Shown here piece after piece: positions 1 to 15,904 of a stretch of 64,000 nucleotides of DNA. Both the position numbers and the translations under genes were made by a program. Under the pieces are notes generated by a model that did not search any database, was not told where the DNA came from, and worked only from the letters and a program-made list of their open reading frames with translations. The DNA is from Bacilli bacterium (GTDB lineage Bacteria > Bacillota_I > Bacilli_A > RFN20 > CAG-826): positions 62,792 through 126,791 of the forward strand of contig JALCDB010000002.1 in assembly GCA_022641095.1 (NCBI GenBank). The letters are read 5' to 3'. Each line of letters opens with the position of its first letter. The first letter of the stretch is position 1.

Positions 1-904
1 TGAGGACCCCCTCCCCATGCTGCGGATGTCGATTGCGCCGAAAACGGCAGCGCAAAGAGAACGGCTGCTGGACGCTCTTACGCAACTTGCGGATACTGAC
101 CCGCTTTTGCGCTGCGAGGTGGATTCCATCACCCATGAGATCATTCTTTCTTTTTTGGGCCGGGTGCAGTTGGAGGTTGTTTCCGCTTTGCTGTCGGAAA
201 AATACAAGCTTGAAACAGTGGTAAAGGAACCCACCGTCATTTATATGGAGCGGCCGCTCAAAGCAGCCAGCCACACCATCCATATCGAGGTGCCGCCCAA
301 CCCGTTTTGGGCATCCATCGGACTGTCTGTTACACCACTCCCGCTTGGCTCCGGTGTACAATACGAGAGCCGGGTTTCGCTGGGATACTTGAACCAGAGT
401 TTTCAAAACGCTGTCAGGGATGGTATCCGTTACGGGCTGGAGCAGGGCTTGTTCGGCTGGAACGTAACGGACTGTAAGATTTGCTTTGAATACGGGCTTT
501 ATTACAGTCCGGTCAGCACGCCGGCGGACTTCCGCTCATTGGCCCCGATTGTATTGGAACAGGCATTGAAGGAATCAGGGACGCAACTGCTGGAACCTTA
601 TCTCTCCTTCACCCTCTATGCGCCCCGGGAATATCTTTCCAGGGCTTATCATGATGCACCGAAATACTGTGCCACCATCGAAACGGTCCAGGTAAAAAAG
701 GATGAAGTTGTCTTTACTGGCGAGATTCCCGCCCGCTGTATACAGGCATACCGTACTGATCTGGCCTTTTACACCAACGGGCAGAGCGTATGCCTTACAG
801 AACTGAAAGGGTATCAGGCCGCTGTCGGCAAGCCAGTCATCCAGCCCCGCCGTCCAAACAGCCGCCTGGACAAGGTGCGCTATATGTTTCAGAAGATAAT
901 GTAA
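1..904 (+). CDS. tet(W): Ribosomal-protection tetracycline resistance protein, Tet(W)-like; C-terminal ~295 aa only, 5' end lies outside the window
   Basis: Translation (…[35 protein letters not shown]…[15 protein letters not shown]) aligns colinearly with the C-terminal domains IV/V of TetM/TetO/TetW-family RPPs. The exact allele call (W vs O/32) is from memory of the family. Confidence 0.8.
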
Positions 905-935: not shown

Positions 936-965
936 TAGACAAAACGGCTCTAAAAGTGCTATAAT
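936..965 (+). promoter_or_regulatory. Near-consensus sigma70-type promoter, TAGACA-18 nt-TATAAT, immediately downstream of the tet(W) stop and upstream of the HTH gene
   Basis: TAGACA at 936-941 and TATAAT at 960-965 with an 18-nt spacer. GGAG ribosome-binding site (RBS) and ATG at 992 follow. Confidence 0.4.
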
Positions 966-991
966 TCTGAATAACAACTACGGAGTTTAAT

Positions 992-1183
992 ATGGACTAC
1001 GCCCGACTAATCAAAGAACTGCGTTCAAAAATGCTTTTATCACAGATGGAGTTCGCTGAGTACCTTGGCGTTTCTTTTTCTGCAGTCAACAGATGGGAAA
1101 AAGGTCGCTATGAGCCAACCATAAAAACAAAGCGTAAGTTGAAAGAGCTTTTTATTAAATATGGATTGGTGGATCGAGACTAA
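992..1183 (+). CDS. XRE-family helix-turn-helix transcriptional regulator (63 aa)
   Basis: MLLSQMEFAEYLGVSFSAVNRWEKG is a classic Cro/CI-type HTH. An RBS precedes it. Confidence 0.7.
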   Translation: MDYARLIKELRSKMLLSQMEFAEYLGVSFSAVNRWEKGRYEPTIKTKRKLKELFIKYGLVDRD

Positions 1184-1184
1184 T

Positions 1185-1841
1185 ATGGACTATAAAAAAA
1201 TAACGGAAAATATAAAAAGCGGATTCACAAAGGATCAACTAAAAAGCTTAGATTTGATCACCGGGTTTGATTCGCTCAAGCTCGCCAATGGTGGCGATAA
1301 TGATGCAGAAGGATATCAGATTTTCACCCCCGCTTTTATCGTGAAAGATATGGTCAAAGCGATAGGGGAGAAAGACGTTTTTAATCCGGATAAAACAGTG
1401 CTCGAACCGACATCAGGTGATGGGGCGTTCACTACTTATATTTTATTAAGAAGATTAGAACGTGCGTTCAAGGAAGATAAAGATGAATTCGAGATCCAGG
1501 CACTAAAGTGCTTGTCTACCATCTATTCTATAGAGATGGATAAGGATCTAATTATCAAGCAAAGAAACAACATCCTGACTGTCTTCACGATATTTGGAAG
1601 GGATCATAAAATCGATTATAGCGATGGGTATCTTGATCTCGTCCGCTGCATGATCCTAACAAATTTTATGTGGGCTATGTTCAATGCGGATATTCCTGCA
1701 ACGTTCTTAATAGTCGAGGTGGCATATAAGATGCCAGAAGCAGAAAAAGGAAAAATGAAGTCGTTAGAATTCCCCGTCTGGGATATATCTGGCAACGGCG
1801 TCACATATCACATGGAAGGAGCGGAGATTAACTATGATTGA
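1185..1841 (+). CDS. Small MTase-fold protein with N6-adenine MTase motifs X and I but no canonical (D/N)PP(Y/F/W) motif
   Basis: FTPAFIVKDMV (motif X-like), LEPTSGDGAF (motif I), YSIEMD (motif II-like). The position expected for motif IV reads ILTNFMW. An alternative in-frame start lies at 1161. The gene overlaps the next one by 8 nt (ATGATTGA). Confidence 0.5.
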   Translation: MDYKKITENIKSGFTKDQLKSLDLITGFDSLKLANGGDNDAEGYQIFTPAFIVKDMVKAIGEKDVFNPDKTVLEPTSGDGAFTTYILLRRLERAFKEDKDEFEIQALKCLSTIYSIEMDKDLIIKQRNNILTVFTIFGRDHKIDYSDGYLDLVRCMILTNFMWAMFNADIPATFLIVEVAYKMPEAEKGKMKSLEFPVWDISGNGVTYHMEGAEINYD

Positions 1842-3567
1842 TAAAAAGAAGAATGATGCTCTTGAAGCCGAACAAACCTATAAAACAGCTGTTGAATCAG
1901 CTAATGACTACATTGAGAACTTCGATATTTTAGAAACCATCACAAATGTTGGTAACGACGAGGTTTTCACACCGAGAAAAACGTGTGATATGATGCTCGA
2001 TTCTCTCCCGGATGAAGTCTGGCATAACCCGAATTATAGATGGCTGAACCCGGCCACCAAAAATGGCATTTTTGAAAGGGAGATCGCAATAAGATTAGAC
2101 GAAGGTTTAAAAGATGTGATTCCGGATCAAGAAAAACGCAGAAAGCATATCTTACAGAACATGATTCATGCTATTGGTCAAACTAAATTTACGGCCAACG
2201 TAGCGAGAAGAACACTTTATTATTGTTCATCCGCAAATAGGGCTTGTGACGGAATACTAGCCGAAGATGGACACTACGTTAATGGATACGCGATTGGAAA
2301 CGGAACGTGGTTTGCTGATGAAGAAGGCAATATTAAAACACCATGTACTGATCATGAATTTGTCGATAGTGCGGGACGAAGAATGCCATCTACATGCAAG
2401 GGCGAGGAAAGAAAAAAATATAAATGTAAATATTGCGGCATCAGTGGAGTCTCAAACTATAACGATGCAAATCAAAGAGAAAAATATGCGTACGAATTAA
2501 TCCATATTAATCATTTGATAATTGGAAAGCACATGAGCAATAGATTCTTTGGAGGTAACAAAGATATGAAATTTGACATTATTATTGGTAATCCACCTTA
2601 TCAACTTAACGATGGCGGTGCACAAGCCTCGGCCAAACCTATTTATCAGCTGTTCGTAGATCAAGCAAAAGCTTTAAATCCACATTATCTATGCATGATT
2701 ATTCCTTCTAGATGGATGGCTGGAGGAAAGGGCTTAGATGACTTCAGAGCATCAATGCTAAAAGATAGGCACATTCGAGTATTACACGACTATACTGATG
2801 CTAAAGAATGCTTCCCAAATAATGAAATAAAAGGCGGAGTTTGTTACTTCCTCTGGAACGGAAAAGAAGAAGGAAAGTGCAAAATTTATAAACATACTGA
2901 TGGCACCATTTCAACAAGCACGAGATATCTCAAAGAGGATGGTGTTGATGTTTTTATTCGTGATGAAAGACTGATTGAAATTTTAAATAAGGTTAAAGCC
3001 AAAAAGTTCAAATCTTTCATGGATATCGTATCGCCAAGAAAACCGTTCGGTTTAGCAGGTGATTTCTTTAAGGATCCAAAGAAATATGATCTCCCACCTA
3101 TTAGTGATAAAAAAATCGAAGGGGGAATAACAATCTGTGGTCTTGATGAACATTTACAAAGAGTAAAAAGATATGTTCCACAGGATTATCCACTCCCTAA
3201 AAAAACCTATTTGCATGGATACAAAATGTTTATGGCTAGAAACCAAGGAAGTGGCACATTCGGAGAACCTTTCTCTGTTCCAATGTTTGCATACGACAAT
3301 GAAATATGTACAGAAACTTTTATTGTTATAGGCACATTTAAAACTGAACAAGAGATGAAAAACTGTTATTCCTATATCAAAACTAAGTTTTTTAGAGCTC
3401 TAGTTGGCATCCGAAAATTAGATCAAAACGCATCTCAAAGCATATATGAATATGCTCCGTTGCTTGATTTTACTAAGCCGTGGAATGATAAAGAACTTTA
3501 TGCAATGTTCGGACTTAGCGATGATGACATCAAATTTATTGAAGAGAACGTTCAGGAGATGAATTGA
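1834..3567 (+). CDS. Gamma-class N6-adenine DNA methyltransferase (577 aa) with a Cys-rich insertion and a C-terminal target-recognition region
   Basis: EVFTPRKTCDMMLD (motif X), LNPATKNGIF (motif I-like), DIIIGNPPYQ (motif IV), then LCMIIPSRWMAGG as in TaqI/Eco57I-like MTases. GGAGG RBS upstream. Confidence 0.7.
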   Translation: MIDKKKNDALEAEQTYKTAVESANDYIENFDILETITNVGNDEVFTPRKTCDMMLDSLPDEVWHNPNYRWLNPATKNGIFEREIAIRLDEGLKDVIPDQEKRRKHILQNMIHAIGQTKFTANVARRTLYYCSSANRACDGILAEDGHYVNGYAIGNGTWFADEEGNIKTPCTDHEFVDSAGRRMPSTCKGEERKKYKCKYCGISGVSNYNDANQREKYAYELIHINHLIIGKHMSNRFFGGNKDMKFDIIIGNPPYQLNDGGAQASAKPIYQLFVDQAKALNPHYLCMIIPSRWMAGGKGLDDFRASMLKDRHIRVLHDYTDAKECFPNNEIKGGVCYFLWNGKEEGKCKIYKHTDGTISTSTRYLKEDGVDVFIRDERLIEILNKVKAKKFKSFMDIVSPRKPFGLAGDFFKDPKKYDLPPISDKKIEGGITICGLDEHLQRVKRYVPQDYPLPKKTYLHGYKMFMARNQGSGTFGEPFSVPMFAYDNEICTETFIVIGTFKTEQEMKNCYSYIKTKFFRALVGIRKLDQNASQSIYEYAPLLDFTKPWNDKELYAMFGLSDDDIKFIEENVQEMN

Positions 3568-3568
3568 T

Positions 3569-6500
3569 ATGAAGGTAGATGTCTATAGATCAACTGAGAT
3601 CAACACTTCTGATAGCGTTAAGATATCTGGCAAGACCAGACAGTTCTTCCTTGACGAAGCAAACGACACCGATCAAGATCTCATTCTCCTATATATGTAT
3701 ATATTGCCTTCCTTCCAGGGCCATGGCGTCAAGGTTGGCATGGCAAAATGCAGACCAGAAGAAACTTTCTGGCACGGCATTAAAGCCAGGATCGCGGAGC
3801 AAAAGCACGAGCTTGCTTTAACTGACGACCAATACAGCAAATATGGCCTCAAACGCGAGGTCGTTTACTGGGGCGTCTGCGTTGATGCCCACAATGAATC
3901 GTTTAAGGATTATCACGTCCACGATGAGATCATGCACAACTGTGCTGGGCTCGCCGAGAAAGAGCAGGAGTGGTTCCAGAACGTTCCTACTGAAGAACTA
4001 ATATCCGCCTTCGAAGCATGCAGAAAAAACGATGTTTCAAAGGATATTTACACGCCTAGAAAAGAACAGGCTAAGGTGATCGAGGATCTGAAGGAGTACT
4101 TCGGCAAATATCCAACCGGTCACAGGTTCCTTTTGAACTGCAAGATGAGGTTCGGGAAATCCTTCACGACCTACAAATATTGTGAGGAAGCCGGTCTCAA
4201 TAAGATCTTGATCTTAACGTTCATTCCGGCGGTTGAGTCCTCTTGGAGAGACGATCTCTGCCATATCAAGAAGGAATATAAGTATTTCACCGACTTCAAT
4301 CTCAGAAAGCCCACGTTCGATCTAAAATCGCACACTGAGCCCTATGTAGTGTTTTTGTCGTTGCAGAACTACTTAGGCAGGGATAGCCAAAGTGCCGATG
4401 TCAAAGCCAAGATCAAGAAACTGCAGGACGTTGATTTCGATCTAGTCGTTCTTGATGAATACCATTTCGGTGCCTGGAACACCAGAACCCAGGACACTTT
4501 CGAGGACCTTGATAAAGATTATCAAAAGAACCTGAAGGACACTAAGGACGTCATCGCCAAGTTTGCGATCAAGACGAAGAAGACGATCTGCCTATCCGGA
4601 ACGCCATTCAGAGCATTGGCCCGCGGCGAATTCAACAACGAGTCCAGCTCGACTTACTCATATTTCGATGAGCAAAGGAACAAATATCCGAAGAGCGAAG
4701 AAAACGACTTCACAGTGGTGGATCCTAAGTATGCCGAATTCCCGGATATGAAGATATTCGGCTATAACATGACGAAGCTATTCGGCAACCTAACCTCCAG
4801 CGTTTTCTCCGATGACAAGATGCTCGGAAACAAATATTTTTCATTGAATAAGTTCTTCGAGACCAAGAAGGACGTCAACTATAACGAGGATTACGTCTTC
4901 ATTTATGAAGAAGAAATAAAACAGTGGCTGGAAATCATCAAGGGTGCCTCTATCCACGGCGACAAATTCCCTTATTCCAACCCTAAGATGAAGCAGAATA
5001 ACAAGCACACCCTTTGGCTCATGCCTACGGTTAGTTCCTGTATAGCGATGGCCAGGTTGCTGAAAGCCGATGATTATTTCTGCAAATATCAAATCATCAA
5101 TCTATCGGACAAAAGCGTGGGGTCCGGAACGGATGCCTATGATTTCTTGATGGATAACATCCAAGCGGCAAAGAACACGAATAAACTCGGGAGCATAGCG
5201 ATCACGGTCAACAAACTGACGATCGGTGTAACGGTGAAGGAGTGGTTCAGTATCTTCGTTTTGAAGGATCTATCCAGCCCGGAATCCTATTTCCAAGCCA
5301 TCTTCAGAATCCAGACGCCATTCAAGAAAAACGGCCAAATTCTCAAAGAGAGTGGTTATGTTTACGACTTCAATATCGACAGGGCCGCTGCCTTGTTATT
5401 GAAATACGCCGAAGAGAGCTCAAGGGACACGAACTATACGAAGCTACAAATTGCTAGATTGATCGTTAAGTACCTGCCTATCTTCGTCAATGGCGACATG
5501 AGTCATCCGATTTCTGACAAGGTCTTCTATGAACTCGCCGAATATGGCGATGCCAGCGGCGTGCCGCTTTCAAGAAAGATCACAGACACTTCAAAAACCA
5601 CAAGGATGATGGATGACGAGGTGATTGCAGAGATGCTTAACGATAAAGAAGTAAGCGAGATCATTAAGCACGTCTTTGCTCATGCGAAATTTGGAAAAAC
5701 AAAAACACGCACAATCCCTCCTAAACCAGAAGACGGATTCCAGACCAAGATCGCCAAGGAAGGCCGCGACAAAGGCTATGCCTTAGGCTTGGAGGATTCC
5801 AAAAAATACGTTGACTTGGACGACAACGAAGTCCAGGCCGCTTTCGAGAAAGCAATCGAGGATTACGTGCTCGAGTATTGCTCCAAAGACTATGATGAAA
5901 ACCAGGTCATCTGGTATACGAACGGCTTCAAGAAAGGATACGAAGGCGGTGTCAACGCCCCGATCAAGAAGATTCAATGCGGAAAAGATGACGGCGTTAA
6001 GTTCGTGGATCAAGTCAAAGGCAAATTCGGACCTAATATCAAATATACGGAGGCTACGAAGCAGCAGATTGAGAACTTCGTCAAAGCCTATCTTAACGAT
6101 ATAAACAACATCCCTAAGGAATATAGGGGAATGCTCTACAAACGCTGGTATTGCGAGTCCTTTAGAAAAGCGGTAAGAAACGTCTTAACCCCGGTAGTGG
6201 ACAGCAAAGATAAGAATTCCGTTGAAGATGCCGATAATGTTATGAAGCATATCTTGGCCAGGCTGTTTGAATTCCTTTATATCTCCGTTTACAGAGAAAC
6301 AACCTTCCAGGAGATCTTCAGTAATGCTGACCCTAACGTTTTCTTAGAGGCTGTCGGTATCACGAAGAAGGACTTCGAGGTTTTGAATAAATATCACATC
6401 TTCCAAGAAGACGTTCTAAATAACTACATCCATGATTTCTTTGTTAACGAATCACTCGGATCAAAACTAGATCTCAATGACGCCAAGATCAAAGCCCAGT

Positions 6501-6907
6501 ACAGAAACAGCTTTGACTGGTTTGGCTTTGGTGTTGATGATGAAGGGGAAATCCATGTGGATGAGAATGTCGGAACTCAGATCATCAAAGATGAAGAACC
6601 CGAAAATGATGAGCAAGATATTGTCGAATCCGAGGTCGCTCCTGAATCTGAATCGATTATGGAAGAGGCCGCTGCAGAACCCGAACCAGAACCCGAGCCC
6701 GATCCGGAAATCGCTCCTGTTCCTGAACCAGTTAAAAAGGATCCGGTCGAACAGATAGAGGAATTGCTCCGAAAGAATCCTAAAGGAATGAAATCCGGCA
6801 AGATCGCCGAGCTTTTAGGCGTTAGCAAACGCGATATTAATAAGATCATGTACGCCAATAAAGACAAGTTTACGGTTGATTTTTTCTTCAATTGGAAACT
6901 TAAATAG
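3569..6907 (+). CDS. 1112-aa multidomain protein: N-terminal T5orf172/GIY-YIG-like domain, SNF2/SF2 helicase core, acidic PE-repeat linker, C-terminal HTH
   Basis: N-terminal LYMYILPSFQGHGVKVGMAK parallels the T5orf172 signature of the next gene. RFGKSFT (motif I), VLDEYH (DExH), LSGTPF (motif III), QAIFRIQT (degenerate motif VI). EPEPEPEPDPEIAPVPEP linker. C-terminal KSGKIAELLGVSKRDINKIMY. Confidence 0.65.
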   Translation: MKVDVYRSTEINTSDSVKISGKTRQFFLDEANDTDQDLILLYMYILPSFQGHGVKVGMAKCRPEETFWHGIKARIAEQKHELALTDDQYSKYGLKREVVYWGVCVDAHNESFKDYHVHDEIMHNCAGLAEKEQEWFQNVPTEELISAFEACRKNDVSKDIYTPRKEQAKVIEDLKEYFGKYPTGHRFLLNCKMRFGKSFTTYKYCEEAGLNKILILTFIPAVESSWRDDLCHIKKEYKYFTDFNLRKPTFDLKSHTEPYVVFLSLQNYLGRDSQSADVKAKIKKLQDVDFDLVVLDEYHFGAWNTRTQDTFEDLDKDYQKNLKDTKDVIAKFAIKTKKTICLSGTPFRALARGEFNNESSSTYSYFDEQRNKYPKSEENDFTVVDPKYAEFPDMKIFGYNMTKLFGNLTSSVFSDDKMLGNKYFSLNKFFETKKDVNYNEDYVFIYEEEIKQWLEIIKGASIHGDKFPYSNPKMKQNNKHTLWLMPTVSSCIAMARLLKADDYFCKYQIINLSDKSVGSGTDAYDFLMDNIQAAKNTNKLGSIAITVNKLTIGVTVKEWFSIFVLKDLSSPESYFQAIFRIQTPFKKNGQILKESGYVYDFNIDRAAALLLKYAEESSRDTNYTKLQIARLIVKYLPIFVNGDMSHPISDKVFYELAEYGDASGVPLSRKITDTSKTTRMMDDEVIAEMLNDKEVSEIIKHVFAHAKFGKTKTRTIPPKPEDGFQTKIAKEGRDKGYALGLEDSKKYVDLDDNEVQAAFEKAIEDYVLEYCSKDYDENQVIWYTNGFKKGYEGGVNAPIKKIQCGKDDGVKFVDQVKGKFGPNIKYTEATKQQIENFVKAYLNDINNIPKEYRGMLYKRWYCESFRKAVRNVLTPVVDSKDKNSVEDADNVMKHILARLFEFLYISVYRETTFQEIFSNADPNVFLEAVGITKKDFEVLNKYHIFQEDVLNNYIHDFFVNESLGSKLDLNDAKIKAQYRNSFDWFGFGVDDEGEIHVDENVGTQIIKDEEPENDEQDIVESEVAPESESIMEEAAAEPEPEPEPDPEIAPVPEPVKKDPVEQIEELLRKNPKGMKSGKIAELLGVSKRDINKIMYANKDKFTVDFFFNWKLK

Positions 6908-6916
6908 GTGACGAAT

Positions 6917-7579
6917 ATGGAACAAGAGAACTTTGGATATATTTATATTCTTACAAACCCGTCATTCCCGGATTACGTGAAGATCGGATACGCGGATGAC
7001 GTCAAATCGAGAGTGGAGCAGCTCAACAGAAGCGAGTGCACCCCATTCGCCTTTAGGATCTACGCCACGTATAAAGTGAGTGATCGCCTTAAAGACATCC
7101 CGGTCCATCAATTGATCGACATACTTAATCCGAGCTTGCGAAGCAAGGATGAAGTGGACGGGAAGCTTAGGGTGCGTGAATTCTATGCCATGCTCCCAGA
7201 GGAAGCATATTCGCTCCTCGAGAAGATTGCCAAGATCAACGGGTTAGAAAAGAACCTGGTCCTTTATAAGAAGACTAAGGCTGACGAGGCAGATGAGAAG
7301 GCCGCCGATAAGATCAGCCAATTAAGCAAGAATCGCCATCATTTCAGGGATTGCGAGTTTTCATCGAGCCTGACTGGGCACACATATATAGGCAAGACGG
7401 GCGATAACGGCACGCTTTGCATCATTGATAAACAAACAGGAGAGGAAGTTCCTAACAATTCCAAGCCTTCGAAAAAGGCTATTGTTAAGCAGGCAGTGGT
7501 GGACCTTGGCGGATCCGCCGATGGCCACGACACCCTCTATCAGCTGTACCATCAACTGACCAAGATCCTGGGGAAGTAG
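6917..7579 (+). CDS. T5orf172 (GIY-YIG superfamily-like, MUG113) domain protein (~220 aa)
   Basis: GYIYILTNPSFPDYVKIGYADDVKSRVEQLN matches the T5orf172 signature. The ORF track starts at a GTG at 6908; the ATG at 6917 has a GGTGA RBS. Confidence 0.6.
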   Translation: MEQENFGYIYILTNPSFPDYVKIGYADDVKSRVEQLNRSECTPFAFRIYATYKVSDRLKDIPVHQLIDILNPSLRSKDEVDGKLRVREFYAMLPEEAYSLLEKIAKINGLEKNLVLYKKTKADEADEKAADKISQLSKNRHHFRDCEFSSSLTGHTYIGKTGDNGTLCIIDKQTGEEVPNNSKPSKKAIVKQAVVDLGGSADGHDTLYQLYHQLTKILGK

Positions 7580-7592
7580 GAAGTGAATATTG

Positions 7593-8591
7593 ATGACCCC
7601 ATTAAACTACTCTCGCTTTTCACACATATTCTTCGATCACGCCATTTATAAGGATGTGACCGCTGTTTGCCGTGCGTTAATCGGAACTTTAGTCAACAAT
7701 GGGAATATAGAAAACTCGAGAGGCGAGATCTATACGATAAACAGCCAAGTAGCTAAGGAGTTCTACGATGGGACAGCCAGCATATATCCGGAATTAGCGT
7801 CCGGTGCTGATTATGTCCTTAGCAAGGATGAAGAATCCGACTCCATGTGCGAGATGATCCTCGAAGATAATGTCGCCGTTGCCCAGAGAAATGGCCTTTT
7901 TGATGACCTTCTCGAAGCCATTAAAGACGATGGTTTAATGAATGCTAGAACAAAGGCTGAGATGATCGGCTTATATGACGCCAAGGAATACGTGAAATTC
8001 TTTAGAGCGGCTTTCGCCTATGCCATGTCCACGGAGAACAAAACGGCTGCAAAAAAGGCGAAAAGAAAGGCACCATCAACTTTAAGTGAAAGAGTGGATG
8101 CGATCAAAGAGATGCTTGAAGAACTAAGACTTAAAAAGCCCGTTTTAATCGTGATTCCAGATGATCTGGAAGATAACGAAGTTATCTATGCAAGCGAGCT
8201 TTTTAAGGCTTACTCAGAGGATGCCATGGTGGCTTTCGCAACGAAGTCTGACCTTGTCGCCTATCCGAAATATGCCCGTGATTTTGAAAGGCAGAGAAAA
8301 GATTTCTATGCTGCCGAATCAATCAGGGTCGGGTTAAGGGACTGCCAATTGGAAGACAGCAACTTTGATGAGCTCAAAAAAGAAATAAATGACGGCGTGG
8401 AAATGACAGCCAGTGCTTTGTATAGTTCCGGCCTTGAAAAGATAAGATCGGTAATGGATAAGGCGGTCACCGTCCCGCTCTCATCTTTGCTGGCTTTGAT
8501 ACCTTCATGGATCGGGCCTTCAGAGAGAAAAGGCGTGGTTCACATGCTCGTCAATGACGGAAAGATAAAATGGGTGGACGAAGATGAATAA
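7593..8591 (+). CDS. Hypothetical 332-aa protein, first gene of a three-gene cassette (LmuA-position, no recognisable catalytic motif)
   Basis: ORF is coupled by an 8-nt overlap to the next gene. No motif recognised by eye. Confidence 0.4.
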   Translation: MTPLNYSRFSHIFFDHAIYKDVTAVCRALIGTLVNNGNIENSRGEIYTINSQVAKEFYDGTASIYPELASGADYVLSKDEESDSMCEMILEDNVAVAQRNGLFDDLLEAIKDDGLMNARTKAEMIGLYDAKEYVKFFRAAFAYAMSTENKTAAKKAKRKAPSTLSERVDAIKEMLEELRLKKPVLIVIPDDLEDNEVIYASELFKAYSEDAMVAFATKSDLVAYPKYARDFERQRKDFYAAESIRVGLRDCQLEDSNFDELKKEINDGVEMTASALYSSGLEKIRSVMDKAVTVPLSSLLALIPSWIGPSERKGVVHMLVNDGKIKWVDEDE

Positions 8592-9024
8592 GTTATATAA
8601 CTCCTCGTTTGAAATGGAACTAAGGACGCTCATGGTCCTTTATATCAGCCCTCTCGAATCCATGTCAGCAGACCAGATCTACTCGTTCGATTTCATCTGC
8701 TGCTACGGGGAGGATTTCGAAGTATCAGAAAATAACCTTCACGGGGACTCCGCGTATAAGTTTGGAGAACTGGCCCTGAGGAAGAGCGTGATCAACGATG
8801 CGGTCAAGGATCTGGTCGTCCGCGGTATGATCGATGTGGTCACCGGAGACGGCTTCAAATACAAGATCAACGATCGCGGGATCGAATTCATATCATCGCT
8901 GGATAACCAATATTCAGATTTATATACAAAGATCGCAGGCGATGCATTCACCAAATATGGGAAGCTCACCGAGCAAGAACTGCTAGCGATCATAAACAAA
9001 GCGGCAATGGGGAGGAATAAGTAA
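8584..9024 (+). CDS. Hypothetical 146-aa protein (middle gene of the cassette, LmuC-position)
   Basis: Translationally coupled on both sides (8591/8584 overlap; 9024/9027). Confidence 0.4.
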   Translation: MNKLYNSSFEMELRTLMVLYISPLESMSADQIYSFDFICCYGEDFEVSENNLHGDSAYKFGELALRKSVINDAVKDLVVRGMIDVVTGDGFKYKINDRGIEFISSLDNQYSDLYTKIAGDAFTKYGKLTEQELLAIINKAAMGRNK

Positions 9025-9026
9025 GT

Positions 9027-10784
9027 ATGCTTAAAATCACGAGATTATGGGCTAAATCAACAGACGGATCCATGTCGGAGATCCCTTTCACCGATGGATT
9101 GAATATTATCCACGGCCCATCAAACACCGGAAAGACTGTCATTGTCGACTGCATCGACTATATCTTCGGCGGCAAATTCACTCCAAATCCAACTCTAAAC
9201 CTCGAAGTGGTGGGAATGGATATGGATGCAAACGGGCATCATTATCACCTAAGTAGGGCATTCAATAGTCCTAACGTCCACGTTGAATCGGACGATGATA
9301 ACATCAAAGACGGAGATTACAGCTCACAGAAAAAACCTTCGCTTGGAGATATATATCTCCGTATGCTTGGAATGGAGCCTCCGATCAAGATCCTGTCATC
9401 GCTTAGCTATACCTTCCAGAACCTAACGTTTAGGGAGTTCTCCCATACCATCGTTTTGAAAGAGGATGACATAAGGGATAGAAAAAGCATTCTTATGCCA
9501 ACCCAGAAGACGTCCGAGACCGTCCTCAAATCGGCGGTACTTTATTTGATAAATGGGCTCACCTACGCGGATCCGAACATCGAGAGCCCTAAGGAGCGTG
9601 CGAAAAGGAAAAAGATCCTGGCGAAATATATCAACGAGAGGATCGGCAAATATAAAACCCTCATAGAACAATATGAGAAGGACAAAAAAGAAGGCTCTGA
9701 TCAGTTCAAGACATCGATTGACGATATTTTGGGCCAAATCGAGTCCACGCAAGGCCAGTTGAACGATAATATCGCCGCTTCGGGAAAACTATCTGGCGAG
9801 TTGATGGAAATCAGCGACAAGATCGCCGAATGCGAGAACCTTGGTGACAAATATACGATTCTTCATTCTCAATATGAGTCCGATCTCCGCAGAATGCAGC
9901 TCATCATAGATGGCGAAACGCATGCGGACGAAGTCGAGAAGATCACTAAGTGTCCGTTCTGCAACGGAGAGCTGCCTAAAGAACAGGAGCAATCCTGCGT
10001 TGAAGCGGCACAAGCTGAATTGCTTAAACTGATCCCTCAAATCAAGGACCTCGAAGATGCTCAGGGTGATCTAGTCAAGGAAAAGGAAGAACTCCAAGCC
10101 AAGAAAGCCGAACTTGAAGGAAAGATAAATGAGCTCGAGGCCAAGATCAACAGCGAGATCAAACCGCTTTTAGCAAAGCTAAGGAATCAACTCAACCTTT
10201 ACAAGGAATCTATCCATAGCGAGGCGGAATATGAAAGCGATAAAAAGATCCTCGCCGATTTGGAGAACCAGCTACGCGAATTGACCGAGGAAAAAGTCGA
10301 GAACGAACGCTTTAATCAGCTCGAGTGCTTCGATGACAGGTTCATCAACACGATAACCAGATATCTCAGAGAGGCATTGGCCGCCTCGAATTACGAGGGT
10401 GCCGAAACATGCATATTTGACATTAATCAGTTCGATGTCAGGGTTAACGGCCAAATGAAACAGCACGAAGGCGAAGGCTACCGCGGATTGCTTAATTCGA
10501 TCACGGCTGTCGCGTTCCACAGGATGCTGCTAGACAACGCCAAATATAAACCTGGATTGCTAATCATGGATTCGCCGATCCTGTCATTGAAGGAAGCGGA
10601 TAGTGTTCCGTTGGACGACTCAATGAAGAAGGGGTTATTCAACTACCTGGCACAGACCGCCGAGAACATGCAGATCATAGTGGTGGAGAACGAGCTGCCT
10701 GAATTCGACAGCGAGAAAGCCAACCTGATCCATTTCACAAAAGACGACAATGGCCGCTACGGCTTCATATCAAACGTCAGATAA
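9027..10784 (+). CDS. SMC/Rad50-like ABC ATPase with a central coiled coil bearing a CxxC hook-like motif (Lamassu LmuB / DUF3732-like)
   Basis: Walker A IIHGPSNTGKTV. Long heptad-rich middle region with CPFCNG. C-terminal GEGYRGLLNSITAVAFHRML…PGLLIMDSPILSLKE (Walker B/D-loop-like). Confidence 0.6.
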   Translation: MLKITRLWAKSTDGSMSEIPFTDGLNIIHGPSNTGKTVIVDCIDYIFGGKFTPNPTLNLEVVGMDMDANGHHYHLSRAFNSPNVHVESDDDNIKDGDYSSQKKPSLGDIYLRMLGMEPPIKILSSLSYTFQNLTFREFSHTIVLKEDDIRDRKSILMPTQKTSETVLKSAVLYLINGLTYADPNIESPKERAKRKKILAKYINERIGKYKTLIEQYEKDKKEGSDQFKTSIDDILGQIESTQGQLNDNIAASGKLSGELMEISDKIAECENLGDKYTILHSQYESDLRRMQLIIDGETHADEVEKITKCPFCNGELPKEQEQSCVEAAQAELLKLIPQIKDLEDAQGDLVKEKEELQAKKAELEGKINELEAKINSEIKPLLAKLRNQLNLYKESIHSEAEYESDKKILADLENQLRELTEEKVENERFNQLECFDDRFINTITRYLREALAASNYEGAETCIFDINQFDVRVNGQMKQHEGEGYRGLLNSITAVAFHRMLLDNAKYKPGLLIMDSPILSLKEADSVPLDDSMKKGLFNYLAQTAENMQIIVVENELPEFDSEKANLIHFTKDDNGRYGFISNVR

Positions 10785-10802: not shown

Positions 10803-10834
10803 GCCTCATCACGCAAAGTGGTGGGGCTTTTTTC
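10803..10834 (+). terminator. Rho-independent terminator closing the nine-gene block
   Basis: GCCTCATCAC-gcaaa-GTGGTGGGGC hairpin (with G·U pairs) followed by TTTTTTC. Confidence 0.5.
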
Positions 10835-13294: not shown

Positions 13295-13881
13295 AAGGAA
13301 ATGTAACCAACATGACAAAAGTTAACTCCCATCCTACCAAAGTCATTACTGGCAAGGATACCAGATGGTCCTACGCAAACGTGTGGGAACCTCGTGCATC
13401 TGCAGAAGGTGCGACCCCTAAATATTCGATCTCACTCATCATCCCTAAGACTGACACCGTTACGATCGCCAAGATCAACGCTGCCATCGAAGCGGCCTAC
13501 AACGAAGGCCAATTCAAGCTCAGAGGCAACGGGAAGACTGTTCCTCCTCTTGCTTCCTTGAAAACCCCTCTCCGCGATGGAGATGTGGAACGTCCTGACG
13601 ATCCTGCTTATAAAAACGCATATTTCGTCAACGCAAACGGCACACAAGCCCCGGAGATCGTTGATGCGGCTTGTAATCCAATCCTCGTTCATTCCGAGGT
13701 CTACAGCGGCGTTTACGGAAGAGCTTCTATCTCCTTCTACGCTTACTCATCCAACGGTTCCCGCGGTATCGCCTGCGGATTGAATAATCTCCAAAAGATC
13801 CGCGATGGTGAACCTTTAGGTTCCAAATCAACTGCAGAGAGCGATTTCGCTACTGATGAGTCCGAAGACTTCCTCGACTAA
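13291..13881 (+). CDS. Phage protein, DUF2815-like (putative ssDNA-binding), partner of DUF2800
   Basis: Position and size (196 aa) are typical of the DUF2800–DUF2815–PolA module. Confidence 0.45.
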   Translation: MKGNVTNMTKVNSHPTKVITGKDTRWSYANVWEPRASAEGATPKYSISLIIPKTDTVTIAKINAAIEAAYNEGQFKLRGNGKTVPPLASLKTPLRDGDVERPDDPAYKNAYFVNANGTQAPEIVDAACNPILVHSEVYSGVYGRASISFYAYSSNGSRGIACGLNNLQKIRDGEPLGSKSTAESDFATDESEDFLD

Positions 13882-15844
13882 AACCCTGTCGATCGATATC
13901 GAGACTTATAGCAGCAACAATCTAAACGAATGCGGAGTCTACAAATATTGCGAAGCACCTGATTTTGAGATCTTGCTCTTCGGATATTCCGTGGACGGCG
14001 GTGATGTGCAGGTGGTTGATCTTGCTGATGGCGAGGTTATACCGCCGCACATCATTTCTTTAATAAAAAGCGATGACTGCCTCAAATACAGCTTCAATTG
14101 CTCATTCGAAAGGATCTGCCTATCTCGATTCCTCGGCATGAAGACCGGAGAGTACTTGGCTCCGGAAAGCTGGCGATGCACGATGGTGGCTTCAAGCTAT
14201 CTCGGGCTTCCTCTATCTCTAAAAGGCGTAGGTGCAGTTCTGGGCCTTGACGAGCAGAAAATGGAGGAGGGTAAAGAACTAATAAAGTTCTTTTGCACCC
14301 CGGTAAAACCAAGCAAGGCGAACGGTGGAGTCACCAGAAACCTATTCAAATACAACACCTACAAACGCGACATGATGATCAAGTACTGCAAACGCGATGT
14401 CGAAGTACAGATGAACATCCAGAAGCGTCTTGAAAACTACCCACTTCCCGATTGGCTATGGGCCGAATATCACCTCGATCAACGCATCAACGACAGGGGT
14501 GTGTTCCTGGACCAGGAACTCGCCGCTAAGGCGATAAAGATTGATGGAATTATCCATCAAGAGCTCGAAAAAGCCATGACCGAGATCACGGAGATCGACA
14601 ACCCGAACTCCCCAGCACAGATCAAGGTGTGGTTAGCCAAATATGGCGTTGAGCCGGAAGACCTCGGCAAAAAGAGCGTTGCGGCCCTTGAGAAGGAATT
14701 CTCCGGGAACGATATCGGCGATGTCATGAGGCTTCGCCAAATGCTCGCAAAAACGTCAACCAAAAAGTACGAACGAATGATGTCCGCGGTGTGCTCTGAC
14801 GGAAGGATCCGCGGCATGTTCCAATTTTATGGAGCGAACCGTACTGGAAGATTTTCTTCCAGACTGGTGCAGTTGCATAACCTTCCGCAGAACAAAATCC
14901 CGGAAATCGGCGTGGTCCGCGATCTGGTCCTCAAGGAAGACGTGGATTCGATCAAAATCCTCTATGAAAACGTCCCCATGGTGCTTTCGCAGCTCATCAG
15001 GACGGCCTTTATCCCAGCCAAGGGCGGAAAGTTCGTGGTTGCGGATTACGCGGCGATAGAAGCCAGGGTATTGGCCTGGTATGCCGGCGAGGAGTGGAGG
15101 ATGAAGGCGTTCGCCAACAACGAGGACATTTATTGCTCATCGGCAAGCAGGATGTTCGGCGTCCCTGTTGTCAAGAACGGCATCAACGGCGACCTCAGAA
15201 AGAAGGGTAAAATCGCCGAGCTCGCTTTGGGCTATGGCGGTGGAGCCGGTGCTTTGATCGCCATGGGTGCCTTGGACGAAGGATCCGGACTCAAGGAAGA
15301 TGACCTCGACCCATTAGTCAAAACGTGGAGAAACGCCAACCCTAAAATAACAAGATTCTGGCGACAAGTCGGCGACACCATCTTGGAAGTGGTCAAGACC
15401 GGCAAATCACTAAAACAGCCATATTCGGTGACCGTTGGAAGGCTCACTTTCACTTACCGCGGATCGATGCTCTTCATCAAACTTCCAAGCGGGAGATGCC
15501 TCTCCTACGTGAAGCCTAAGGTCGTCATTAACAAATTCGGAAGCGAATCCATCTCCTACGAGGGGATAGGCGACCAGAAGAAATGGGCGAGGCTCGAATC
15601 CTATGGGCCTAAGTTCGTTGAGAACATCGTCCAGGCAACCGCACGAGACCTCCTTTGCTACGCCATGCGTAACCTTAAGGACTACCGCATCGTGATGCAC
15701 GTTCATGACGAAGTGATCATCGAGGATTTCGATGGGGTTTCACACGCTTTCATGGAAAAGGAGATGGCCAAGATCCCGGAATGGGCATCCGGCTTGATCC
15801 TTAGGGCGGACGGCTACGAATGTCCCTTTTATCAGAAAGACTGA
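13856..15844 (+). CDS. Family A DNA polymerase (phage-type, with 3'-5' exonuclease domain)
   Basis: LSIDIETYS (Exo I), KYGVEPEDLGKKSV…, RIVMHVHDEVIIE (motif C). Confidence 0.8.
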   Translation: MSPKTSSTKTLSIDIETYSSNNLNECGVYKYCEAPDFEILLFGYSVDGGDVQVVDLADGEVIPPHIISLIKSDDCLKYSFNCSFERICLSRFLGMKTGEYLAPESWRCTMVASSYLGLPLSLKGVGAVLGLDEQKMEEGKELIKFFCTPVKPSKANGGVTRNLFKYNTYKRDMMIKYCKRDVEVQMNIQKRLENYPLPDWLWAEYHLDQRINDRGVFLDQELAAKAIKIDGIIHQELEKAMTEITEIDNPNSPAQIKVWLAKYGVEPEDLGKKSVAALEKEFSGNDIGDVMRLRQMLAKTSTKKYERMMSAVCSDGRIRGMFQFYGANRTGRFSSRLVQLHNLPQNKIPEIGVVRDLVLKEDVDSIKILYENVPMVLSQLIRTAFIPAKGGKFVVADYAAIEARVLAWYAGEEWRMKAFANNEDIYCSSASRMFGVPVVKNGINGDLRKKGKIAELALGYGGGAGALIAMGALDEGSGLKEDDLDPLVKTWRNANPKITRFWRQVGDTILEVVKTGKSLKQPYSVTVGRLTFTYRGSMLFIKLPSGRCLSYVKPKVVINKFGSESISYEGIGDQKKWARLESYGPKFVENIVQATARDLLCYAMRNLKDYRIVMHVHDEVIIEDFDGVSHAFMEKEMAKIPEWASGLILRADGYECPFYQKD

Positions 15845-15850
15845 TGTTCT

Positions 15851-15885
15851 GGTTATAGGTGGCCGATTAGATGTCCGAATTAATA
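15851..15885 (+). promoter_or_regulatory. Copy 3 of the conserved phage regulatory element, upstream of the primase gene
   Basis: GGTTATAGGTGGCCGATTAGATGTCCGAATTAATA, then GAAGGAGG and the ATG at 15905. Confidence 0.4.
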
Positions 15886-15904
15886 TGAAGGAGGTTCCAA
15901 TCTC

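What the first reader, a model, noticed from the sequence alone, without database searches (positions are those of the whole stretch)
1185..3567. Adjacent MTase-fold genes with complementary motif content (short paralog lacking NPPY; long paralog with a lysine-substituted motif I and a Cys-rich insert)
The 218-aa protein has FTPAFIVKDMV / LEPTSGDGAF / YSIEMD (motifs X, I, II), but the motif-IV position reads ILTNFMW. The 577-aa protein has FTPRKTCDMMLD / LNPATKNGIF / IIGNPPYQ, plus an inserted CTDHEF…CKGEERKKYKCKYCG cluster that may bind zinc. The genes overlap by 8 nt (ATGATTGA) and each has its own RBS, so this is not a simple frameshift of one gene. The pattern suggests either a regulatory SAM-binding paralog or a two-subunit arrangement.
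Basis: seen in the sequence. Interest (0 to 1): 0.55.

Follow-up and report, generated by a model that had tools for sequence, protein, structure and literature searches.

The report
Split adenine methylase in restriction system
The small gene encodes only the cofactor-binding half of a DNA adenine methyltransferase and is a conserved separate partner of a larger methylase and a helicase-nuclease, together a restriction-modification defence enzyme whose methylase is apparently assembled from two proteins.

Summary
The genes, coordinates, 8-nt overlap and quoted motifs are real. Two details are wrong. 'ILTNFMW' is motif III, not a degenerate motif IV: the 218-aa protein stops before motif IV. 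The conserved cysteines are C131, C138, C198 and C201, not those in the variable loop.

The short protein is not a gene fragment. It belongs to a large unannotated family of stand-alone 'N-half' proteins (motifs X, I, II, III; 1234 clusters) that keeps the AdoMet-binding residues almost invariantly.

The 577-aa protein is N'C. It carries a degenerate copy of that half (first motif-I Gly replaced by Lys, motif-II acid replaced by Gly/Ala) fused to the NPPY catalytic half and a variable, CamA-like target-recognition domain.

All 39 related genomic loci have an N-half gene directly upstream, and every complete one has a T5orf172-SF2 helicase gene downstream. Two-gene and one-gene relatives carry the same five modules. 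Fused N-C methylases are collinear with short plus the long C-half. N' appears only where the helicase does.

Best reading (about 0.6): a Type ISP/III-like ATP-dependent restriction-modification system. Its methylase domain is completed in trans by the short AdoMet-binding subunit, and N' serves as a pseudo-half adaptor. This is a new variant of a known kind.

The parts
936..965 (+). Promoter-like site (TAGACA, 18 nt, TG-TATAAT; 11/12 matches) upstream of the HTH gene. It is the likely operon promoter.
   Evidence: Best-scoring site in the consensus scan. This is a consensus match only.
992..1183 (+). 63-aa XRE-family HTH protein, a probable controller (C-protein-like) of the operon. Its stop codon lies 1 nt before the short gene's ATG.
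   Evidence: Pfam HTH_3 E 1.3e-10. Homologues lie directly upstream of the N-half gene in 15 related loci.
1185..1841 (+). 'N-half' subunit (218 aa): the AdoMet-binding half of a gamma-class N6-adenine MTase, followed by a C-terminal beta-hairpin (PVW). Motif X is FTP (nt 1323-1331), motif I LEPTSGDGAF (1401-1430), motif II IYSIEMD (1521-1541), motif III NFMWAMFN (1662-1685). There is no motif IV.
   Evidence: Family and invariant residues. AF2 model with pLDDT 83 and pTM 0.83. Foldseek hits to CamA, LlaBIII, BsaXI, MmeI and PglX. No Pfam family.
1834..3567 (+). 'N'C' subunit (577 aa). N' is the degenerate N-half paralogue (aa ~25-240), with motif I' LNPATKNGIF at nt 2044-2073 and motif II' AIGQT lacking the acid. 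A putative Zn site is formed by C131/C138/C198/C201 (nt 2224-2436). The NPPY catalytic half starts at FDIIIGNPPYQ (NPPY at nt 2590-2601). A variable target-recognition domain covers aa ~340-577.
   Evidence: Pfam Eco57I E 3.7e-29. PADLOC MTase_II matches from residue 245 on. Alignment A2. AF2 plus Foldseek: CamA E 4e-13, also BrxX, M.TaqI and MmeI. N' is 77% identical among loci against 43% for the C part.
3569..6907 (+). Restriction subunit (1112 aa). It has an N-terminal T5orf172 (GIY-YIG-superfamily) domain (aa ~42-149, nt ~3692-4015), an SF2 helicase/translocase (Walker A MRFGKS, DEYH; aa ~164-640), an acidic Pro/Glu-rich linker, and a small conserved C-terminal domain (aa ~1059-1112).
   Evidence: PADLOC REase_MTase_IIG profile positions 159-595. 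29% identity to P0353 residues 66-564, E 2e-56. T5orf172 is hit by 8/15 homologue N-termini, best E 6.7e-7; the window copy scores E 0.065. A homologue lies downstream of every complete locus, mostly with a 1-nt gap.

Best explanation
Genes 992-6907 form one operon: an HTH controller, N-half, N'C and T5orf172-helicase. It encodes an ATP-dependent restriction-modification enzyme that works like a Type ISP/Type III system but is built from three polypeptides.

The 218-aa protein (N) is the AdoMet-binding half (beta1-beta3, motifs X, I, II, III) of a gamma-class N6-adenine methyltransferase. The 577-aa protein supplies the catalytic half (beta4 onward, NPPY) and the DNA target-recognition domain.

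N docks onto that catalytic half in trans to form the complete Rossmann-type methylase domain. That domain methylates, and reads the methylation state of, an asymmetric target site.

The long protein's own N-terminal region (N') is a duplicated N-half. It has lost the glycine loop (Gly replaced by Lys76) and the ribose-binding acid (replaced by Gly115), and it carries a Cys4 insert. It now serves as a pseudo-domain that couples the methylase to the T5orf172-helicase subunit.

On unmethylated foreign DNA the helicase translocates and the GIY-YIG-type T5orf172 nuclease cuts.

Shown: the domain content, the paralogy, the motif complementarity, the obligate synteny, the fusions and the link between N' and the helicase. 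Inferred: physical docking of N on C, AdoMet binding by N only, the adaptor role of N', and the restriction mechanism.
For: 1. Obligate partnership. All 39 loci found with the long protein carry an N-half gene directly upstream: 21 of the 215-aa type and 18 of a 330-aa type. In the two decayed loci the neighbouring genes are decayed too. Junctions overlap by 4-8 nt or leave at most a 3-nt gap, and the long-to-helicase gap is mostly 1 nt. Five further contexts of closer and more distant small homologues show the same neighbours.

2. Fusions. P0364 (516 aa) and L058 (521 aa) are N fused to C. P0364 residues 49-119 match short 62-130 (36%, E 3e-10) and residues 187-515 match long 247-576 (29%, E 8e-26). 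P0353 (1470 aa) is T5orf172-helicase-N'-N-C in one gene, with no separate N gene beside it. L010 and L054 are two-gene forms (N, then nuclease-helicase-N'C). Every form has exactly one copy of each of the five modules.

3. Complementary motifs across the family. In 54 diverse small proteins, motif-X Thr is present in 54/54, motif-I Glu in 53/54, the first Gly in 54/54, the second Gly in 53/54, and the motif-II acid in 54/54. In 16 diverse N' regions the first Gly is always Lys, and wherever motif II' aligns (nine of them) the acid is Ala or Gly. NPPY occurs only in C.

4. N' tracks the helicase, not methylation. All 11 N'-bearing proteins in viral contigs with enough downstream sequence have the helicase homologue downstream. 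The seven loci with C or N-C proteins but no detected N' have none.

5. N+C two-gene methylases without N' exist (L060-62, L099), as does the reverse order C then N (L063). C matches only Eco57I model positions 73-171, and two of the three N-halves match the first part of N6_Mtase.

6. The AF2 model of the long protein is confident in the C part (pLDDT 77-98) but poor in residues 111-172 of N' and only 58-68 around beta4/NPPY. This fits an incomplete catalytic domain. It is soft evidence, because the alignment was shallow.
Against: No complex was modelled or measured, so docking of N on C is inference. N' sits in the canonical position directly before beta4 and still has motif X (FTP) and Gly-x-Phe of motif I. 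It is the most conserved part of the protein (77% identity). It could therefore fold with C in cis and bind AdoMet in an unusual way; M.TaqI, from my own knowledge, also lacks the first Gly (ACAHG).

The short protein's AF2 model is a confident self-contained fold (pTM 0.83) with its own C-terminal hairpin. It need not pair with C.

The window's subfamily has Met165 where most members have the motif-III Asp/Asn.

The one-gene fusion P0353 is a single sequence. The L099-type N+C split is rare among its mostly fused relatives. The profile-profile comparison of the two families (A1 vs A2) gave only 4.8% probability. No experimental data exist for any member.
Confidence: 0.6

Rival explanations
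1. The long protein is a self-sufficient methyltransferase. N' folds with C in cis and binds AdoMet non-canonically. The short protein is a separate AdoMet-binding regulatory or sensor subunit. It might gate methylation against restriction according to AdoMet level, or guard against phage SAM-degrading enzymes.
For: N' occupies the canonical place before beta4, keeps FTP and G-x-F, and is 77% conserved. The whole-protein model aligns end to end with the single-chain methylase CamA (E 4e-13, TM 0.5). The short protein is predicted as an autonomous fold. Strict conservation of AdoMet-binding residues in N fits a sensor as well as a catalytic half.
Against: N' has lost the motif-II acid, which all 54 small family members keep, and has a Lys in the glycine loop in every lineage. 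N-C fusions and N+C pairs without N' show that N is the working cofactor half for this C family. In P0353, N and not N' sits next to C. N' correlates with the helicase, not with the presence of C.
Confidence: 0.27
2. The short gene is a remnant of a methylase gene broken by a recent deletion or frameshift. It would be a pseudogene fragment with no function of its own.
For: It is collinear with the N-terminal half of fused relatives. Some C-only genes, such as L099, look like young fissions among mostly fused relatives.
Against: There are 268 homologues of uniform length (210-229 aa) at 50-73% identity, with 44 invariant positions concentrated in the cofactor motifs. A start codon, an RBS and translational coupling are conserved. 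The gene is present in 39/39 loci and decays together with its partners. A second, alternative N-half class sits at the same position.
Confidence: 0.02
3. The short protein is a second, independent methyltransferase, for example for the other DNA strand, as in some Type IIS systems. Under this reading 'NFxW' is a variant catalytic motif IV.
For: N160, F161 and W163 are invariant and superficially resemble N-P-P-W.
Against: The alignment with distant members and with fused enzymes places this segment at motif III, with the real FDxxxGNPPY following in the fusions. The protein has no beta4-beta7 and no target-recognition domain. In most of the family the segment reads NIIxGDxL.
Confidence: 0.03

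Closest known systems
Type ISP restriction-modification enzymes (LlaGI, LlaBIII)
   Same: The functional modules are the same: nuclease, SF2 helicase/translocase, gamma-class N6-adenine methylase and target-recognition domain. The PADLOC profile PDLC03626 for a fused helicase-methylase enzyme matches both the helicase protein and the long protein. LlaBIII and LlaGI appear among the Foldseek hits of the short protein. One-gene relatives exist (P0353).
   Different: Here there are three polypeptides instead of one. The nuclease is T5orf172/GIY-YIG-like instead of Mrr/PD-(D/E)xK. The methylase cofactor half is a separate protein and a degenerate duplicate (N') is present; neither feature is described for LlaGI or LlaBIII in the papers found (PMC3553950, PMC2790908).
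DnmA(YeeA)-YeeB-YeeC cluster of Bacillus subtilis and Vibrio
   Same: It is a conserved operon of an adenine methylase for a non-palindromic site, an SF2 helicase and a T5orf172 protein. It is found in defence islands, and the Vibrio homologues affect phage sensitivity (PMC9973331).
   Different: DnmA is an MmeI-like single-chain methylase, and the paper reports no separate cofactor half. T5orf172 is a separate protein there, whereas here it is fused to the helicase. No sequence comparison with DnmA was made here.
CamA (Clostridioides difficile orphan adenine methylase) and other Eco57I/M.TaqI-like gamma-class MTases
   Same: CamA is the best structural match of the long protein (E 4e-13, TM about 0.5). 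Both have a methylase core plus a C-terminal DNA-recognition domain. The long protein hits Pfam Eco57I.
   Different: CamA is a single self-sufficient chain (my knowledge). The long protein has Lys in the glycine loop, no motif-II acid, a Cys4 insert and an obligate separate N-half partner.
Naturally split DNA methyltransferases (M.AquI and M.EcoHK31I alpha/beta subunits; from my own knowledge, not checked here)
   Same: One methyltransferase catalytic domain is encoded by two adjacent or overlapping genes.
   Different: Those are C5-cytosine enzymes, split later in the fold and without a retained pseudo-half. They are isolated cases, not a family of more than 1000 clusters tied to a helicase-nuclease.
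Type III restriction-modification (Mod + Res, e.g. EcoP15I)
   Same: The gene order is methylase/recognition subunit followed by an ATP-dependent helicase-nuclease subunit. Asymmetric sites are likely.
   Different: From my own knowledge, Mod is a beta-class methylase acting as a homodimer, and Res carries a C-terminal PD-(D/E)xK nuclease. Here the methylase is gamma-class, split and carries a pseudo-half, and the nuclease is an N-terminal T5orf172 domain.

Membership tests
Gamma-class N6-adenine DNA methyltransferase (Eco57I family, PF07669) | Catalytic motif IV (N/D)PPY following beta4 | tested here: met
   The long protein has FDIIIGNPPYQ (aa 247-257), invariant in 31 homologues. Pfam Eco57I E 3.7e-29. 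The short protein has no motif IV.
Gamma-class N6-adenine DNA methyltransferase (Eco57I family, PF07669) | AdoMet-binding motifs in the same chain: motif I (D/E)PxxGxGxF and the motif II acidic residue | tested here: not met
   The long protein has NPATKNGIF and AIGQT: the first Gly is Lys and the acid is Gly, in all homologues. The canonical motifs are on the separate 218-aa protein: LEPTSGDGAF and IYSIEMD. The pair meets the definition only taken together.
Gamma-class N6-adenine DNA methyltransferase (Eco57I family, PF07669) | Fold: Rossmann-type methylase core plus a C-terminal target-recognition domain | tested here: inconclusive
   The long model matches CamA, BrxX, M.TaqI, BseCI and MmeI (E down to 4e-13). 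The N' part (residues 111-172) is low-confidence. The short model matches the same enzymes only weakly (E 0.05-1, TM 0.3).
Gamma-class N6-adenine DNA methyltransferase (Eco57I family, PF07669) | Methyl transfer to adenine N6 at a specific DNA sequence | not testable with these tools
   This needs methylome data or an enzyme assay.
Type ISP restriction-modification | Single polypeptide carrying nuclease, helicase, methylase and TRD | tested here: not met
   There are three genes here. A one-gene relative exists (P0353).
Type ISP restriction-modification | Mrr-like PD-(D/E)xK nuclease domain at the N-terminus | tested here: not met
   The N-terminus is T5orf172 (GIY-YIG superfamily). 8/15 homologue N-termini hit PF10544, best E 6.7e-7; the window copy scores E 0.065.
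Type ISP restriction-modification | SF2 helicase-like ATPase coupled to a gamma-class methylase/TRD | tested here: met
   PADLOC PDLC03626 matches the helicase part of the 1112-aa protein (E 1.4e-29) and the methylase/TRD part of the long protein (E 1.9e-31). ResIII hits occur in homologues.
Type ISP restriction-modification | ATP-driven translocation and cleavage on collision of enzymes from head-to-head unmethylated sites | not testable with these tools
   This is biochemistry only.
Type III restriction-modification | Beta-class Mod methylase and a Res subunit with helicase followed by a C-terminal PD-(D/E)xK nuclease | tested here: not met
   The motif order X-I-II-III-IV and the Eco57I hit show a gamma-class enzyme. 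The nuclease domain is N-terminal T5orf172.
Stand-alone 'N-half' protein family (defined here, no database entry) | A protein of about 130-330 aa with motifs X, I, II and III and no motif IV, encoded next to a gene carrying the NPPY half | tested here: met
   No Pfam family for the window protein. Sources name it 'hypothetical protein'.

The most novel reading that the evidence does not exclude
The AdoMet-binding half is a deliberately detachable, exchangeable subunit. It acts as a checkpoint that ties both methylation and restriction to AdoMet loading. It can be swapped between two unrelated-looking classes (215 aa and 330 aa) on otherwise 70%-identical enzymes.

Phages may exploit this. The roughly 55 orphan N-half genes of 130-200 aa in viral contigs, which lack any NPPY partner within 6 kb, would be mimics. 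They would dock on host N'C subunits to poison restriction or to force methylation of phage DNA. That would be a new class of anti-restriction protein and a new target for it.
Probability: 0.12. Interest if true: 0.85.

Novelty: new variant of a known kind. Interest (0 to 1): 0.62.

Why it matters
If correct, a large clade of ATP-dependent restriction-modification enzymes builds its methyltransferase active site from two polypeptides and keeps a dead copy of the cofactor half as an adaptor. Seven text searches of the open literature held here turned up no description of such an arrangement.

This has three practical consequences:
- It gives a function to an unannotated family of more than 1000 sequence clusters of small 'hypothetical' proteins.
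- It warns annotation pipelines and REBASE-type predictions that the 'Eco57I-domain methylase' in these systems is probably inactive without its small neighbour.
- It offers a natural, evolution-tested split site for engineering split adenine methylases.

The orphan N-halves in phages suggest an untested route of phage counter-defence.

Tried and rejected
- Megablast of 950-7600 against plasmid and phage collections found no match.
- Sequence searches of the PDB with the short protein, the long protein and the A1 and A2 profiles found nothing significant. Only the broader family profile A4 reached HsdM structures.
- hhalign of the two families (A1 vs A2) gave low probability (4.8%, E 0.008). 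A repeat with A4 failed internally. The paralogy claim therefore rests on pairwise BLASTP, on hmmalign of N' regions to the N-half profile and on P0353.
- I considered 'NFxW' as a variant motif IV and rejected it after aligning distant members.
- I considered the downstream T5orf172 gene (6908-7579) and the Lamassu genes as parts of the system. I rejected this because they accompany only 2 related loci each.
- No inverted repeat that could serve as a controller-protein operator was found in 880-1000.
- Text searches for Type ISP plus T5orf172/GIY-YIG and for split methyltransferases found no paper describing this arrangement.
- My first hmmalign column mapping was wrong because of trimming, and I redid it.
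Full report
OBSERVATION. They sit in a tight + strand series:
- a promoter-like site at 936-965;
- a 63-aa XRE HTH gene at 992-1183, whose stop is 1 nt before the short gene;
- the short gene and the long gene;
- a 1112-aa gene at 3569-6907 that starts 1 nt after the long gene's stop.

The quoted motifs are present. Pfam finds nothing in the short protein and finds Eco57I (E 3.7e-29) in the long one.

THE SHORT PROTEIN IS A CONSERVED FAMILY, NOT A FRAGMENT. A search of 5.8 billion proteins gave 268 homologues. All of the 120 listed are 210-229 aa and 51-73% identical apart from the window's own 100% match, and where a name is given it is 'hypothetical protein'. Forty-four positions are invariant, clustered in QxFTP, LEPTSGDGAFT, YSxEMD, QRxN and NFxW.M.N.

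A profile search of 1.84 billion cluster representatives found 1234 hits (164 below 1e-10). Nearly all are stand-alone proteins of 150-280 aa that match profile positions 45-170. The AF2 model is confident (pLDDT 83, pTM 0.83). All its Foldseek hits down to E 1.1 are gamma-class adenine methylases: CamA, LlaBIII, LlaGI, BsaXI, MmeI and PglX. The scores are weak (E 0.05-1.1, TM 0.3), as expected for half a domain. A profile of 54 diverse members matches HsdM structures over motifs X and I (E 6e-5).

MOTIF ASSIGNMENT. Distant members read GEVFTP / LEPACGNGNF / IYGIDI / NIIxGDxL. The window's N160-FMWAMF-N167 aligns with NIIxGDxL, which is motif III. In fused relatives FDxxxGNPPY follows about 35 residues later. 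So the short protein is motifs X-I-II-III plus a beta-hairpin (PVW) and then ends. It does not have a degenerate motif IV.

Across the 54 diverse members the AdoMet signature is almost invariant:
- motif X Thr 54/54;
- motif I Glu 53/54, Gly 54/54, Gly 53/54, Phe 52/54;
- motif II acid 54/54;
- motif III Asn 53/54.

The window's subfamily has Met at the motif-III Asp/Asn position.

THE LONG PROTEIN IS N'C. Its N-terminal region is a paralogue of the short protein (28% over 67 aa, pairwise E 6e-5; hmmalign). In 31 close homologues and 16 diverse lineages the first motif-I glycine is Lys (NPxTK[NSTD]GxF). Wherever motif II' can be aligned, the motif-II acid is Ala or Gly. This is a conserved variant, not decay.

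Between N' motif III' and beta4 lies an insert. Its invariant cysteines are C131, C138, C198 and C201. From FDIIIGNPPYQ onward the protein matches profiles that begin at NPPY (PADLOC MTase_II, residues 245-548).

The whole model resembles CamA (E 4e-13), BrxX/PglX, M.TaqI, BseCI and MmeI. Confidence is high in the C part and poor in residues 111-172. Among related loci N' is 77% identical and the C part 43%, the pattern expected when target-recognition domains diversify.

THE THIRD GENE. The 1112-aa protein has a T5orf172 (GIY-YIG superfamily) N-terminus. Of 15 homologue N-termini, 8 hit PF10544 (best E 6.7e-7); the window copy scores E 0.065. It also has an SF2 helicase that matches a fused helicase-methylase restriction-enzyme profile (PADLOC PDLC03626), and it is 29% identical to P0353 (E 2e-56).

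SYNTENY.
- Searching one genome per species with the long protein gave 40 loci, mostly gut Bacilli, Mollicutes, Erysipelotrichaceae and Clostridia MAGs.
- Leaving aside a 28-residue fragment, all 39 have an N-half gene directly upstream. 21 are of the 215-aa type. 18 are of a 330-aa type that also carries EVFTP, a G-containing motif I, an IYGYE motif II and an NIWQMDG motif III, plus a CxxC hairpin. The 330-aa type is 24% identical to the short protein (pairwise E 4e-4).
- Every locus with enough downstream sequence has the helicase homologue, apart from the decayed L049. In two loci the neighbouring genes are decayed together.
- Junctions are overlapping or nearly so.
- The HTH recurs upstream in 15 loci.
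- Contexts of more distant small proteins show the same logic: 231 aa + 553-aa Eco57I (LNPCDKNGVF) + 1005 aa (L008), and 267 aa + a K-variant gene (L052).

FUSION AND FISSION SERIES.
- Two-gene form: a 244-aa N-half overlapping a 1379-aa T5orf172-like-helicase-N'(FFDPDAKSGLF)-NPPY protein (L010). L054 is similar.
- One-gene form: P0353 (1470 aa). Its order is T5orf172, ResIII helicase, N' (LDLYMKSGMF), then a canonical N module (LEPTFGEGVF, IYGIELQ, NFLQGDFL, hairpin), then FIIVGNPPYQ and the recognition domain. No separate N gene lies beside it.
- Plain N-C fusions without N' and without a helicase: P0364, L058, and most relatives of the L099 C-half.
- N+C two-gene pairs without N': L060-62 (126 aa + 297 aa starting MFDVIVGNPPYQ) and L099. 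The reverse order occurs in L063.

In viral contigs, all 11 N'-bearing proteins with enough downstream sequence have the helicase homologue downstream. None of the seven loci whose C or N-C protein lacks a detectable N' does.

MECHANISM. The comparative pattern says that N, N', C, the helicase and T5orf172 make one enzyme. It also says N is the working cofactor half for this C family, and that N' is tied to the helicase-nuclease, not to methylation.

The AdoMet pocket and the NPPY loop must lie in one Rossmann sheet (established knowledge of class I methyltransferases). The most economical model is therefore that the short protein docks by beta1 on beta4 of the long protein and completes the catalytic domain. 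N' would be a pseudo-half that couples the methylase to the translocase-nuclease. The enzyme as a whole should then behave like a Type ISP or Type III system.

I put this at about 0.6. The main rival (about 0.27) is that N'C folds in cis and is self-sufficient, with the short protein acting as an AdoMet-binding regulator. N' sits in the canonical position, keeps FTP and is very conserved, and the short protein is predicted to be an autonomous fold. None of this was tested physically.

COMPARISON AND NOVELTY. The system works like Type ISP enzymes (LlaGI/LlaBIII). It resembles the DnmA-YeeB-YeeC cluster in parts list (PMC9973331). It fails Type ISP membership on single-polypeptide organisation and on nuclease type, and it fails Type III membership on methylase class.

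Naturally split methylases are known for C5 enzymes (M.AquI and M.EcoHK31I, from my knowledge). I found no description of a separately encoded AdoMet half plus retained pseudo-half in adenine methylases or in ATP-dependent restriction enzymes. REBASE could not be consulted. I rate it a new variant of a known kind, with interest 0.62.

CONTEXT. The operon lies in a defence island on what looks like a mobile element:
- the 3' part of a tet(M/W/O)-family gene at 17-904;
- a PDC-S57-type T5orf172 gene at 6908-7579;
- a complete Lamassu system at 7590-10784;
- a PolA-like polymerase and a P4-type primase at 13856-18172.

Noticed in passing
L059, L064-L067, L069-L074, L076-L083, L085-L098 and others (IMG/VR viral contigs; N-half ORF at about 5900-6400 in each locus): About 55 viral contigs carry orphan N-half genes of 130-200 aa. 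They have intact motifs X, I, II and III, but no NPPY-bearing gene lies within 6 kb. They fall into two sequence families. In at least two loci (L067, L081) the neighbouring gene looks by eye like a terminase small subunit; this was not searched. Their function is unknown. They may be decoys for host split methylases.
   Followed up: partly
L013-L016, L020, L021, L026, L030, L031, L033, L035, L038, L040, L041, L043, L046, L048 (e.g. L015:5010-5999): A second class of N-half partner (about 330 aa) occupies the same position as the 215-aa type. It has an N-terminal extension, an insertion before motif I and a CxxC hairpin. It occurs upstream of long proteins up to 70% identical to the window's, which suggests the cofactor subunit has been swapped.
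   Followed up: partly
window 17-904 (+): The C-terminal 295 residues of a TetM/TetW/TetO/TetS-family ribosomal protection protein (NCBIfam NF033148, E 3e-187) run in from the window's left edge. A tetracycline resistance gene therefore lies right beside the defence island.
   Followed up: partly
window 6908-7579 (+): A stand-alone 223-aa T5orf172 protein matches the PADLOC candidate system PDC-S57 (E 6e-59). It starts right after the helicase gene's stop, but it accompanies only 2 of the related loci (L020, L029). It is probably a separate defence gene.
   Followed up: partly
window 7590-10784 (+): A complete Lamassu / ABC-3C system is present: LmuA-like (CTD6) at 7590-8591, LmuC-like (MC2) at 8584-9024 and the LmuB SMC-type ATPase at 9027-10784. 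The strongest terminator-like hairpin of the region follows at 10803-10827.
   Followed up: partly
window 13856-18172 (+): A PolA-like DNA polymerase fragment-type protein (13856-15844) and a P4-family primase (15905-18172) suggest that the island sits on an integrative mobile element or prophage-like element.
   Followed up: no
window 6560-6904 (+), C-terminus of the 1112-aa protein: An acidic Pro/Glu repeat (EPEPEPEPDPE) is followed by a small C-terminal domain of about 55 residues. That domain is separately conserved in many helicase homologues. Its only Pfam hit is a weak one to ORF6N. It may be a DNA-binding winged helix.
   Followed up: no
L044 and L049 (genome loci): In these two loci the cassette is decayed by frameshifts and stops. 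In L044 the N-half, N'C and helicase genes are all fragmented. In L049 the N-half and N'C genes are fragmented and no helicase homologue was detected. This fits loss of the cassette as a unit.
   Followed up: partly
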